Source of the DNA: a virus
Virus genome (UHGV): UHGV-0045952
Direction: 5' to 3' (one strand)
Length of the DNA: 16,743 bases
Under the pieces are notes generated by a model. That model made no database searches and had not been told where the DNA came from. It saw only the letters and a list, made by a program, of their open reading frames with translations. The position numbers and the translations under genes were made by a program. Shown here in pieces: positions 9,621 to 10,315 of the stretch. Numbering within the stretch: position 1 is the stretch's first letter; the number at the start of each line of letters is the position of its first letter.

Positions 9621-9788
9621 ATGACCATCTACATCACTGAGCTAATAGCAGGGTTATCGTTACTAATGGTTCTTACTGTATATATTATTAAGTATATTCT
9701 TTATGCGAATAAAAAAAACCAATTGATCACGATGAGCTTCTGTCAACATTATCATATGACTCAGAAACAGGAATATTTAAATGGCTAA
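9621..9788 (+). CDS. Small hydrophobic ORF, 55 aa
   Basis: ATG at 9621 directly after the primase-helicase stop, GGAG 6 nt upstream; hydrophobic N-terminus MTIYITELIAGLSLLMVLTVYIIKYIL; runs through the A8 tract into the disrupted HNH gene in another frame. May be a remnant. Confidence 0.25.
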   Translation: MTIYITELIAGLSLLMVLTVYIIKYILYANKKNQLITMSFCQHYHMTQKQEYLNG

Positions 9789-10315
9789 AAACAAATTCAG
9801 TAGTAAGAGTAAAAGGTAGTATTGCTGGAGGTGTTAGTGGTGGTTATATATGCATTAGCATAAATAATGTTTTGTATTATGCGCATAGGCTTGCTTGGTT
9901 CTATGTATACAAAAAATGGCCTCCTAAGTTTATTGATCATGTAAATGGGAACAGACTTGACAATAGGATTTCAAATCTAAGACTGGCAACAGAGGAGCAG
10001 AATGCAAGAAACATTGTAGGTAATAGGTTAAACACATCCGGTGCGATTGGAGTGTCTTGGGATAAGACAACTGGCAGGTGGAAGTCTTATGTTGGTTATA
10101 AAAATAAGACAATATCGTTAGGGTATTTCGATAGCAAAGAAGATGCAGCATTCATAGCAGCACTAGCAAGAAAGAAACTATATGGAACTTATGCGAGTAA
10201 AGCACTTAATTGCGAGCATGAGCTTTTATCTCAATTTAATAATGATGAGGATAAACTTGCGGAATATCTTAAGGAAAAATCTAAAAGGACTCGAAAGCGT
10301 GTTAAAAAAAGATAA
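9703..10315 (+). pseudogene. HNH-AP2 homing-endonuclease-like gene, copy 1, with an apparent +1 homopolymer frameshift near the start
   Basis: Track ORF 9872..10315 has a TTG as first codon and carries the HNH motif (AHRLAWFYVYKKWPPKFIDHVNGNRLDNRISNLR) and an AP2-like segment. The frame stays open back to 9713 with homology to the N-termini of copies 2 and 3 but has no ATG. An ATG at 9703 is out of frame by one base across the A8 run at 9711..9718; with A7 it would read MRIKKPIDHDELLSTLSYD... Confidence 0.5.

What the first reader, a model, noticed from the sequence alone, without database searches (positions are those of the whole stretch)
9621..9880. HNH copy 1 lacks an in-frame start because of a single-base excess in an A8 run
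The HNH reading frame is open from 9713 and homologous to the N-termini of the other two copies, but has no ATG. An ATG at 9703 is in the +1 frame and hits a stop at 9724. Removing one A from the A8 tract at 9711..9718 yields MRIKKPIDHDELLSTLSYDSETGIFKW..., which aligns with copy 3 (MKEIKLTPEMVLSVVDYNPSSGDFHW). The same tract forms an A_AAA_AAC heptamer in the frame of the upstream small ORF (9621..9788), so a -1 ribosomal or transcriptional slip is formally possible. Explanations are a homopolymer sequencing error in a draft assembly, a real inactivating frameshift, or slippage-dependent expression.
Basis: seen in the sequence. Interest (0 to 1): 0.5.

Follow-up and report, generated by a model that had tools for sequence, protein, structure and literature searches.

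The report
Frameshifted homing endonuclease gene in prophage
One of three selfish HNH endonuclease genes in this E. coli prophage carries a real extra A in a run of As near its start, which knocks the gene out of frame; this is an ordinary, recent, recurrent kind of gene inactivation, not an assembly error and not a special decoding device.

Summary
The window has A8 at 9711-9718. The ATG at 9703 stops at TGA 9724-9726, and the HNH_3+AP2 frame (9713-10315) has no ATG, GTG or TTG before 9872.

Intact homologues (HK022, PA28, E. coli MS 21-1; 203 aa) have one base fewer in the tract. The nearest intact allele differs from the window's only by that A.

It is not an assembly artefact. The finished genome of E. 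coli MS 196-1 has the same A8, and so do short-read assemblies from other samples that carry distinguishable sister prophages.

The allele is rare: 1 of 135 copies in complete E. coli genomes, and none of 19 phage records. It is young, with no second lesion.

The tract is an indel hotspot. A8 or A6 variants sit on four different haplotypes of this gene.

Nothing marks programmed recoding. There is no downstream RNA structure, the arrangement is not conserved, and the A_AAA_AAC heptamer is weak in E. coli. Published reporters detected no deletion slippage by E. coli RNA polymerase on poly(A) runs.

Comparison with phage Sf101 shows that the HNH gene is an insert of about 672 bp inside the small ninA ORF, so the "upstream small ORF" is a ninA' remnant.

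Verdict: a genuine frameshift-inactivated, at most leaky, freestanding HNH-AP2 homing endonuclease gene. Ordinary.

The parts
9711..9718 (+). A8 homopolymer; one A more than in the nearest intact allele (A7CC). This is the frameshift site, at codons 3-5 of the HNH gene.
9703..9726 (+). Remnant of the true HNH start: ATG plus 6 codons (MRIKKTN), then TGA. In A7 alleles this ATG opens the 203-aa ORF. It has no Shine-Dalgarno match (-0.9 kcal/mol).
9713..10315 (+). Open HNH-AP2 reading frame, 200 codons plus TAA, lacking any canonical start before TTG 9872. Otherwise identical to intact alleles.
9875..10009 (+). HNH_3 (PF13392) nuclease domain, residues 55-99 of the open frame.
   Evidence: E 7.9e-16, 57.9 bits; invariant DH/N/N columns
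10043..10186 (+). AP2-type DNA-binding domain, residues 111-158.
   Evidence: E 1e-07, 32.6 bits, just under the 33.3-bit cut-off; plant WRI1 AP2, E 0.0015
9621..9788 (+). ninA' small hydrophobic ORF. It is 34 aa in intact alleles and is extended to 55 aa here by the extra A. The first ~23 nt are the 5' end of ninA. It has a good SD (GGAG, -6.1 kcal/mol).
9713..9719 (+). A_AAA_AAC heptamer in the ninA' frame. A -1 slip would give a 231-aa NinA'-HNH fusion. The motif exists only in the A8CC allele.
   Evidence: sequence; PMC4066793; no downstream structure
9644..10315 (+). The inserted homing-endonuclease cassette, about 672 nt. It replaces TGTAAC of the uninterrupted ninA of phage Sf101. The left edge is fuzzy, 9644 to about 9656.
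10316..10356 (+). 3' remnant of ninA. It carries the G+C-rich hairpin plus T run (terminator-like on both strands, 10314-10341) that follows the HNH stop.
7740..9620 (+). Context: Toprim/DnaB-like primase-helicase gene. Its TAA overlaps the ninA' ATG.
11362..11928 (+). HNH-AP2 paralogue, copy 2 (188 aa, intact), between ninF and ninG.
14061..14573 (+). HNH-AP2 paralogue, copy 3 (170 aa, intact), downstream of the Q antiterminator gene.

Best explanation
The window is the early-right (replication and nin) region of a lambdoid prophage. It is almost certainly the draft assembly of E. coli MS 196-1.

A freestanding HNH-AP2 homing-endonuclease gene is inserted inside the small ninA ORF. The site is just downstream of the primase-helicase gene and just upstream of a terminator-like hairpin.

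In intact alleles the 203-aa enzyme starts at the ATG equivalent to 9703. That ATG has no ribosome-binding site of its own and overlaps the end of the well-initiated ninA' ORF. I infer that it is translated at a low level by coupling to ninA'.

In this allele, replication slippage added one A to the A7 tract at codons 3-5 (shown by comparison). Ribosomes starting at 9703 therefore stop after 7 codons, and the HNH frame has no usable start. The gene is a young frameshift pseudogene: null, or at most leaky.

Any residual product would come from rare unprogrammed events (inferred). These are a +1 slip on AAA AAA A, a -1 slip from the ninA' frame at A_AAA_AAC giving a membrane-anchored fusion, or loss of one A in the mRNA or DNA.

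The tract is a mutational hotspot. It repeatedly generates such alleles in this gene family, in line with the invade-then-decay life cycle expected of homing endonuclease genes.
For: **The extra base is real and derived**
- Intact alleles have a tract one base shorter.
- The nearest intact allele (L021) differs from the window inside the cassette only by the A.
- The 594-nt ORF downstream is identical between the A8CC alleles and A7CC alleles.

**It is not an artefact**
- The finished chromosome NZ_CP146681.1 has the same A8. It agrees with the draft over 15.4 kb with 1 mismatch and no gap.
- Logan assemblies from other runs also have A8CC. L007, L008 and L009 differ from the window by 4, 16 and 25 SNPs. 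L007 and L008 also carry a 1023-bp intein insertion.

**It is rare, so it is not the designed state**
- 1 of 135 places in 126 complete E. coli genomes.
- 0 of 19 phage records.
- 1 of 30 IMG/VR loci, and that one is the window's own contig.
- 0 of 15 metagenome contigs and 0 of 1 GTDB representative.
- The 34-aa ninA' form is on at least 1386 contigs, against 4 for the 55-aa form.

**The tract is a hotspot**
- A8CT (E. coli, and at least 24 Salmonella contigs) and A6CT alleles exist. Together with A8CC they sit on four different ORF haplotypes, and none has a second lesion.

**No usable alternative start**
- SD:anti-SD energies are +0.1 (ATT 9722), +1.3 (TTG 9872) and -3.0 (GTG 10052) kcal/mol, against -6.1 for ninA'.
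- A TTG-start product would lack 10 of the 41 columns invariant among the three paralogues.

**No recoding signals**
- The downstream RNA folds worse than shuffles (z +1.18).
- A_AAA_AAC is a low-efficiency motif in E. coli (PMC4066793).
- E. coli RNAP showed no rescue by deletion on the poly(A) runs tested, and lambda N lowers deletion slippage (PMC6260861).

**It is an insertion in ninA**
- The Sf101 empty site shows this.

**Precedent for decay**
- Degenerating HNH-AP2 genes are documented in other phages (PMC2248197).
Against: - No read-level data were available. The independence of the finished MS 196-1 assembly from the draft is inferred, not documented.
- All frameshifted alleles keep a perfect downstream ORF. 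That is what a very recent mutation predicts, but a reversible or leaky switch predicts it too.
- Unprogrammed -1 frameshift suppression summed over many sites reached 1-10% in two E. coli test genes (PMC10861913). The ninA' and HNH frames overlap over about 25 codons, so "null" may really be "a few per cent as a fusion protein".
- A natural A6 allele encodes essentially that fusion, so the fusion is at least tolerated.
- Endonuclease activity of even the intact protein is inferred from domains only.
Confidence: 0.8

Rival explanations
1. Homopolymer miscount in a draft assembly: the real genome has A7 and the gene is intact.
For: - The window is a gapped draft. It has N runs at 3909-3997 and 15554-15563, and a junk-like homopolymer string at the contig end, 3998-4020.
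- Older pyrosequencing-type data miscount long homopolymers (general knowledge).
Against: - The same A8CC is in the finished MS 196-1 chromosome. That assembly shows no homopolymer-length disagreement with the draft over 15.4 kb.
- It is also in Logan short-read assemblies of several other runs. Three are distinguishable sister prophages.
- Independent A8CT and A6CT alleles occur in many NCBI and Logan assemblies.
Confidence: 0.03
2. Slippage-dependent (programmed) expression: the A8 tract is a recoding site. Either RNA polymerase drops an A, or ribosomes shift (+1 from ATG 9703, or -1 from ninA' at A_AAA_AAC), to make a regulated low amount of endonuclease.
For: - A_AAA_AAC is the motif used by IS1-family elements, and it gives more than 0.1% frameshifting without a stimulator (PMC4066793).
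- Genes with a long A run that look like pseudogenes can be rescued by transcriptional slippage (PMC1088944).
- Low expression would suit a toxic nuclease.
- The downstream ORF is intact in all A8 alleles.
Against: - The arrangement is not conserved. It is a rare derived allele, and the A7 in-frame state dominates everywhere.
- There is no stimulatory structure, and by inspection no SD-like element upstream of the tract.
- Rescue needs deletion slippage on poly(A). This was undetectable for E. coli RNAP on the runs tested, and lambda N lowers deletion slippage. This gene lies in a region that, by general knowledge of lambdoid phages (not tested here), is transcribed under N antitermination (PMC6260861).
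- The genomic survey for slippage candidates searched for runs of 9 A or T.
- The -1 route yields a fusion to a hydrophobic peptide, not the native protein.
Confidence: 0.05
3. Phase-variable (contingency) tract: reversible A6/A7/A8 switching at the DNA level turns the endonuclease OFF, ON or into a NinA'-fused form within prophage populations, and is maintained by selection.
For: - At least four independent tract-length changes sit on four haplotypes, in both directions (+1 and -1), and none is followed by further decay.
- No interrupting AAG codon was seen in any allele examined.
Against: - Off-length alleles are at most about 3% of the contigs counted, and 1 of 135 in complete E. coli genomes.
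- An A7 tract is short for a contingency locus, which usually has 8 or more G/C or longer A/T (general knowledge).
- With about 2% total divergence, the lack of AAG interruptions has no statistical weight.
- A plain hotspot in a weakly selected selfish gene explains the same pattern.
Confidence: 0.07
4. An alternative start rescues the gene: initiation at in-frame ATT 9722 (as an NCBI annotation assumes for the Salmonella A8CT allele) or at TTG 9872 gives a functional N-terminally shortened enzyme.
For: - ATT 9722 is in frame and would remove only 6 residues.
- NCBI records annotate a 197-aa product with exactly this start in at least 24 Salmonella contigs.
- A 147-aa TTG-start product is called in 22 contigs.
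Against: - These are gene-caller choices, not evidence of expression.
- AUU is a very weak initiator that IF3 discriminates against (general knowledge).
- There is no SD upstream of ATT 9722 (+0.1 kcal/mol) or TTG 9872 (+1.3).
- The TTG product would lack the N-terminal block conserved in all three paralogues. By the weak I-HmuI alignment, that block corresponds to the part preceding the HNH core.
Confidence: 0.05

Closest known systems
Freestanding HNH-AP2 homing endonuclease genes of phages (the HNH-AP2 class listed for T4-related phages and Xanthomonas phages Xp10/OP1/Xop411; I-HmuI is the solved HNH_3-type relative)
   Same: - HNH_3 plus AP2 domain architecture and a strong match to phrog_99 "HNH endonuclease".
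- Several paralogues in one phage genome.
- Presence/absence polymorphism at a defined site, ninA.
- Copies at different stages of decay are described for this class (PMC2248197; PMC2993671).
   Different: - No activity or target site has been shown for this protein.
- Sequence similarity to I-HmuI is only marginal (E 0.39).
- This copy is disabled by a single homopolymer indel rather than by truncation.
IS1-type -1 ribosomal frameshifting at A_AAA_AAC (InsAB' transposase)
   Same: The same heptamer, in the zero frame of a short upstream ORF that overlaps a longer downstream ORF in the -1 frame. No strong stimulator is known for IS1 either (PMC4066793).
   Different: - In IS1 the arrangement is conserved across the family and the fusion is the functional protein.
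- Here the heptamer exists only in a rare mutant allele.
- The normal gene has its own ATG, in the +1 frame relative to ninA'.
- The fusion partner is a hydrophobic ORF remnant.
Rescue of homopolymer-frameshifted genes by transcriptional slippage (9A/9T candidates of Baranov et al. 2005; Citrobacter tssM; Shigella mxiE)
   Same: An apparent pseudogene whose frames are separated by one base within a poly(A) run (PMC1088944).
   Different: - The run is 8, not the 9 used in that survey.
- Rescue would need a deletion on poly(A), which was not detected for E. coli RNAP (PMC6260861).
- The state is not conserved.
Homopolymeric-tract phase variation (contingency loci of Haemophilus, Neisseria, Campylobacter; general knowledge)
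   Same: Tract-length polymorphism (A6, A7, A8) near the 5' end of an ORF, switching the frame, with recurrent independent events.
   Different: - The tract is short and made of A.
- Off states are rare.
- No within-strain switching data exist.
- The gene is a selfish element, not a surface or restriction-system gene.

Membership tests
HNH-AP2 (HNH_3-type) phage homing endonuclease | HNH_3 nuclease domain with the conserved His/Asn residues of the beta-beta-alpha-metal motif | tested here: met
   PF13392 at E 7.9e-16, 57.9 bits against a cut-off of 24.8. D78, H79, N87, N91 and N100 are invariant among the three paralogues. phrog_99 at E 3.8e-72.
HNH-AP2 (HNH_3-type) phage homing endonuclease | C-terminal AP2-type DNA-binding domain | tested here: inconclusive
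   PF00847 at E 1e-07, but 32.6 bits is just under the 33.3-bit gathering score. Copy 3 passes at 35.1 bits. Plant WRI1 AP2 matches at E 0.0015.
HNH-AP2 (HNH_3-type) phage homing endonuclease | Mobile: present or absent at a defined site between otherwise homologous genomes | tested here: met
   The Sf101 empty site has an uninterrupted ninA. Identity to the window ends at 9643 and resumes at 10316. The same insert follows different replication genes in HK022, PA28 and others.
HNH-AP2 (HNH_3-type) phage homing endonuclease | Site-specific cleavage of the insert-less allele and homing | not testable with these tools
   Needs purified protein and co-infection assays.
Frameshift pseudogene | Close homologues encode the product in a single ORF, and this copy needs an indel correction to do so | tested here: met
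   203-aa ORFs in HK022, PA28 and MS 21-1. The window differs by +1 A.
Frameshift pseudogene | The indel is in the genome, not an assembly artefact | tested here: met
   The finished genome and independent short-read assemblies share it. Raw reads were not inspected.
Frameshift pseudogene | No product is made | not testable with these tools
   Only indirect evidence: no SD at alternative starts and no recoding signals.
Programmed -1 ribosomal frameshift site | Slippery X_XXY_YYZ heptamer in the zero frame of the upstream ORF | tested here: met
   A_AAA_AAC at 9713-9719 in the ninA' frame.
Programmed -1 ribosomal frameshift site | Downstream stimulatory structure or upstream SD-like stimulator | tested here: not met
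   9720-9800 has MFE -5.4 kcal/mol against a shuffle mean of -8.27, z +1.18. No GGAGG-like element is seen upstream of the tract in the sequence.
Programmed -1 ribosomal frameshift site | The two-ORF arrangement and the motif are conserved among homologues | tested here: not met
   The motif exists only in the A8CC allele: 1 of 135 places in complete E. coli genomes, 0 of 19 phage records, 0 of 15 metagenome contigs.
Programmed transcriptional slippage site | A or T run long enough for efficient slippage by the host polymerase, with the arrangement conserved among homologues | tested here: not met
   The run is 8 and the arrangement is not conserved. Reporter data show none for poly(A) deletion with E. 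coli RNAP (PMC6260861).
Homopolymeric-tract contingency (phase-variable) locus | Tract length varies among related strains and changes the reading frame | tested here: met
   A6, A7 and A8 alleles. Off-length tracts occur on four ORF haplotypes.
Homopolymeric-tract contingency (phase-variable) locus | High-frequency reversible switching within a clonal population | not testable with these tools
   Needs read-level or single-colony data.

The most novel reading that the evidence does not exclude
The A tract at codons 3-5 of this ninA-inserted homing endonuclease gene is a selected, reversible switch. A7 gives free HNH enzyme made by coupling to ninA'. A8 is OFF or trace. A6 gives a membrane-anchored NinA'-HNH fusion driven by the strong ninA ribosome-binding site. 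On this reading temperate-phage populations keep a phase-variable selfish nuclease rather than simply losing it. The evidence that does not exclude it: four independent tract-length events, in both directions, none followed by further decay.
Probability: 0.06. Interest if true: 0.5.

Novelty: already known. Interest (0 to 1): 0.17.

Why it matters
The main value is for annotation.

- **Gene status.** This HNH gene should be treated as a genuine frameshifted pseudogene. It should not be "repaired" as an assembly error, and it should not be reported as a shorter protein. RefSeq splits it into an HNH fragment plus an 87-aa "AP2 domain protein". Other records start it at TTG or ATT.
- **Why the first lesion is here.** A short poly(A) tract at the 5' end is the weak point of this widespread lambdoid homing endonuclease gene. 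That explains recurrent disrupted copies in E. coli and Salmonella prophages.
- **Insertion site.** Locating the insert inside ninA, next to a terminator-like hairpin, gives a concrete candidate target site for anyone who wants to test homing.
- **No new mechanism.** Nothing here requires one.

Tried and rejected
- **Assembly error.** Rejected after comparison with the finished MS 196-1 genome and Logan assemblies.
- **Natural ATG start at codon 7.** The 197-aa Salmonella protein suggested one. The DNA shows it is the A8CT frameshift allele with an annotator-chosen ATT start.
- **Stimulatory RNA structure for -1 frameshifting.** None was found downstream of the heptamer.
- **Internal promoter.** The consensus scan of 9300-10700 found no plus-strand promoter-like site and no excess over shuffles.
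- **Purifying selection on the frameshifted ORF.** This cannot be tested. The A8 alleles have no substitutions in the ORF, and flanking variation is concentrated upstream of 9644, mostly in the primase-helicase gene.
- **My first view of the cassette.** I first took it to be small ORF plus HNH plus its own terminator. I revised this when the Sf101 empty site showed that the ORF start and the hairpin belong to ninA.
- **Solved-structure search.** It gave only marginal hits: I-HmuI at E 0.39 and plant AP2 at E 0.0015.
- **Literature on MS 196-1.** A search for how the strain was sequenced found nothing relevant.
- **Not used.** Large homology searches and structure prediction, because they would not change the verdict.
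Full report
**1. The observation**

- Positions 9711-9718 are eight A's. This is the longest homopolymer in the window.
- The ATG at 9703 reads ATG CGA ATA AAA AAA ACC AAT TGA and stops at 9724-9726.
- The next frame is closed by TAA at 9710-9712 and then stays open to TAA at 10313-10315. It encodes an HNH_3 domain (E 7.9e-16) followed by an AP2 domain (E 1e-07).
- That frame contains no Met. Its first ATG/GTG/TTG is TTG at 9872.
- A 55-codon ORF runs from 9621 to 9788. In its frame, 9713-9719 is A_AAA_AAC.
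- An A8 run alone is not improbable: 54% of shuffles contain an A8 or T8. The case rests on comparison with homologues.

**2. What the locus is**

- The window is the immunity, replication, nin and lysis region of a lambdoid prophage.
- It is a gapped draft, with N runs at 3909-3997 and 15554-15563.
- Its middle contig, 3998-15553, is identical to IMG/VR contig IMGVR_UViG_648276659_000002.
- The finished chromosome of E. coli MS 196-1 (NZ_CP146681.1) matches window 1-3907 at 100%. It matches 4019-15553 with one mismatch and no gap.

**3. Intact homologues**

- HK022 (HK022_57), PA28 (gp34) and E. coli MS 21-1 (WP_001220570.1) encode a 203-aa HNH endonuclease from the ATG equivalent to 9703.
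- In alignment they have A7 where the window has A8.
- A gapped pattern scan found three in-frame tract types:

| Tract | Residue 6 |
|---|---|
| A7CT | Leu |
| A7CC | Pro |
| A8C | Thr |

- The window is A8CC, one base longer.
- The closest intact allele (L021) differs inside the cassette only by the A.
- The 594 nt from ATT 9722 to the stop are identical between A8CC and A7CC alleles. The restored protein equals the MS 21-1 protein.
- So a single A was inserted into an A7CC allele. Formally it could instead be a C inserted into an A8C allele, which is mechanistically less likely.

**4. Real or artefact**

- The finished MS 196-1 genome carries the identical A8CC. There, PGAP could annotate only an HNH fragment plus an 87-aa "AP2 domain-containing protein".
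- The 55-aa extended small ORF exists only with A8CC. An exact look-up found it in Logan assemblies of several further sequencing runs.
- One of these (L006) is identical to the window over 6.2 kb.
- L007, L008 and L009 differ by 4, 16 and 25 SNPs. L007 and L008 also have a 1023-bp intein-like insertion (Hint + LAGLIDADG_3) in the primase-helicase gene.
- The extra A is therefore a genuine, inherited allele of a small prophage lineage.

**5. How common it is**

| Collection | Off-length tract |
|---|---|
| Complete E. coli genomes: 126 of 5426 carry the gene, 135 places | 1 (MS 196-1); no full-length exact match to A8CT or A6CT |
| Phage records | 0 of 19 |
| IMG/VR loci | 1 of 30, the window's own contig |
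| Metagenome contigs | 0 of 15 |
| GTDB representative | 0 of 1 |

In the 15-billion-protein collection (lower bounds, since only 15 of the 33 members of the small-ORF cluster were listed):

| Product | Allele | Contigs |
|---|---|---|
| 34-aa small ORF | in frame | at least 1386 |
| 55-aa small ORF | A8CC | 4 |
| 33-aa small ORF | A8CT | 30 |
| 230-aa small-ORF-HNH fusion | A6CT | 8-10 |

- I confirmed A8CT and A6CT at the DNA level.
- A 197-aa Salmonella "HNH endonuclease", on 32 contigs, turned out to be A8CT with an ATT start chosen by the annotator.
- Off-length tracts sit on four different ORF haplotypes, and none has a further lesion.
- The tract is thus a recurrent indel hotspot, and each frameshift allele is young.
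- Flanking variation among the A8CC prophages lies almost entirely upstream of 9644, mostly in the primase-helicase gene. The unbroken ORF therefore carries no signal of selection.

**6. Anatomy**

- Phage Sf101 has the same primase-helicase gene followed directly by ninA (26 aa, MTIYITELVTGLLVIAGLFIWGRGKS) and ninB.
- Identity with the window runs through the first 23 nt of ninA, to 9643. It resumes at 10316 with AGGCCTGCTGGTAATCGCAGGCCTTTTTATTTGGGGGAGAG.
- The HNH gene is therefore an insert of about 672 nt (9644-10315) inside ninA.
- The "small ORF" is the ninA 5' end running into insert sequence.
- The terminator-like hairpin after the HNH stop (10314-10341) is the ninA 3' part.
- The same insert follows different replication genes in HK022, PA28 and other contexts. 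This fits a mobile homing endonuclease gene that targets ninA.
- The ninA' ATG has a good SD (-6.1 kcal/mol). ATG 9703 has none (-0.9).
- I infer that in intact alleles the nuclease is made at a low level by coupling to ninA' translation. ninA' ends about 20 nt downstream of the HNH ATG.

**7. Could the A8 allele still be expressed?**

- **(a) Alternative starts.**
  - ATT 9722 and TTG 9872 have no SD (+0.1 and +1.3 kcal/mol).
  - The TTG product would lack the N-terminal block conserved in all three paralogues.
- **(b) Transcriptional slippage.**
  - Restoring the frame requires loss of one A.
  - In reporter assays E. coli RNA polymerase gave no detectable rescue by deletion on the poly(A) runs tested. 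Lambda N further reduced deletion slippage (PMC6260861).
  - The genomic survey of slippage candidates used runs of 9 (PMC1088944).
- **(c) Ribosomal frameshifting.**
  - From ATG 9703 a +1 slip on AAA AAA A within 7 codons would be needed.
  - From ninA' a -1 slip at A_AAA_AAC would give a 231-aa fusion (...YANKKN-PIDH...).
  - That heptamer is classed as low efficiency in E. coli, although it gives more than 0.1% and IS1-family elements use it (PMC4066793).
  - The 81 nt downstream fold worse than shuffled sequence (z +1.18).
  - Unprogrammed -1 suppression summed over many sites reached 1-10% in two test genes (PMC10861913). A small amount of fusion protein therefore cannot be excluded.
- Nothing marks the site as evolved for recoding, and its rarity argues against it.

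**8. Comparison with what is known**

- The protein is a member of the phage HNH-AP2 (HNH_3-type) endonucleases: phrog_99 at E 3.8e-72, with only marginal sequence similarity to I-HmuI.
- This class is listed among the homing endonuclease genes of T4-related phages (PMC2993671).
- In Xanthomonas phages it has been described at successive stages of degeneration (PMC2248197).
- The frameshift resembles the IS1 A6C site and slippage-rescued pseudogenes in form only. It fails their tests for conservation and for stimulators.

**9. Verdict**

- This is a genuine, recent, single-base frameshift at a homopolymer hotspot that inactivates, or nearly inactivates, a selfish endonuclease gene inserted in ninA.
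- It is an ordinary event of a known kind.
- The practical value is for annotation, and for pointing to a candidate homing site.
- The most novel reading not excluded is a selected A6/A7/A8 phase switch. I give it about 6%.

Noticed in passing
window 9621-9643 and 10316-10356; L069 (Sf101) 622-702: The HNH gene is inserted inside the small ninA ORF. The ninA 3' part is a G+C-rich hairpin plus T run that scores as a terminator on both strands, so "ninA" overlaps a probable nin-region terminator.
   Followed up: partly
L007 and L008 (insert at the equivalent of window ~8850-8852); also L060: Sister prophages carry a 1023-bp in-frame insertion in the primase-helicase gene (626 to 968 aa) with Hom_end_hint and LAGLIDADG_3 domains. 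It is an intein-like element near the start of the helicase (AAA_25) domain. The window lacks it.
   Followed up: partly
window 11362-11928 and 14061-14573: Two further intact HNH_3+AP2 paralogues (34% and 41% identical to copy 1) lie between ninF and ninG and downstream of the Q antiterminator gene. That makes three freestanding endonuclease genes in about 5 kb of one prophage.
   Followed up: partly
window 3909-4020: An N run of 89 bases is followed by a homopolymer-rich string (AAAAAAACCCCCGGGCGGGGGGG) that is absent from the finished MS 196-1 genome, where 3907 and 4019 are contiguous. It is low-quality contig-end sequence at a hairpin.
   Followed up: partly
window 15554-16743: After a 10-N gap, 15564-15942 has no counterpart at this position in the finished MS 196-1 prophage, and 15943-16743 is only 99.1% identical to it. 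The extra segment, with a 90-aa minus-strand ORF between the YdfR and lysozyme genes, is a common lambdoid lysis-region variant in other E. coli. The scaffold may join a contig from a different prophage.
   Followed up: partly
L061-L065 (A6CT alleles); protein P0023: A natural one-base-shorter tract (A6) fuses ninA' in frame to the HNH ORF, giving a 230-aa protein with a hydrophobic N-terminus. It is present in at least 8-10 contigs, including an NCBI assembly (GCA_043169705.1).
   Followed up: partly
L066-L068 (Salmonella enterica assemblies); protein P0020: NCBI records annotate the A8CT frameshift allele as a 197-aa HNH endonuclease starting at an ATT codon. RefSeq for MS 196-1 instead splits the gene into a pseudo HNH fragment and an 87-aa AP2 protein. 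The same lesion is annotated inconsistently.
   Followed up: yes
L003 (Stx2a phage Stx2_16002) and L056, L058, L061: In several relatives an extra ORF of about 270 bp (89 aa, no Pfam hit) lies between the replication gene and the ninA'/HNH cassette. This is more mosaicism at the junction.
   Followed up: no
window 10304-10310: A second A7 run lies at the 3' end of the same HNH ORF, encoding ...RVKKR. No length variation was seen in the alleles examined.
   Followed up: no
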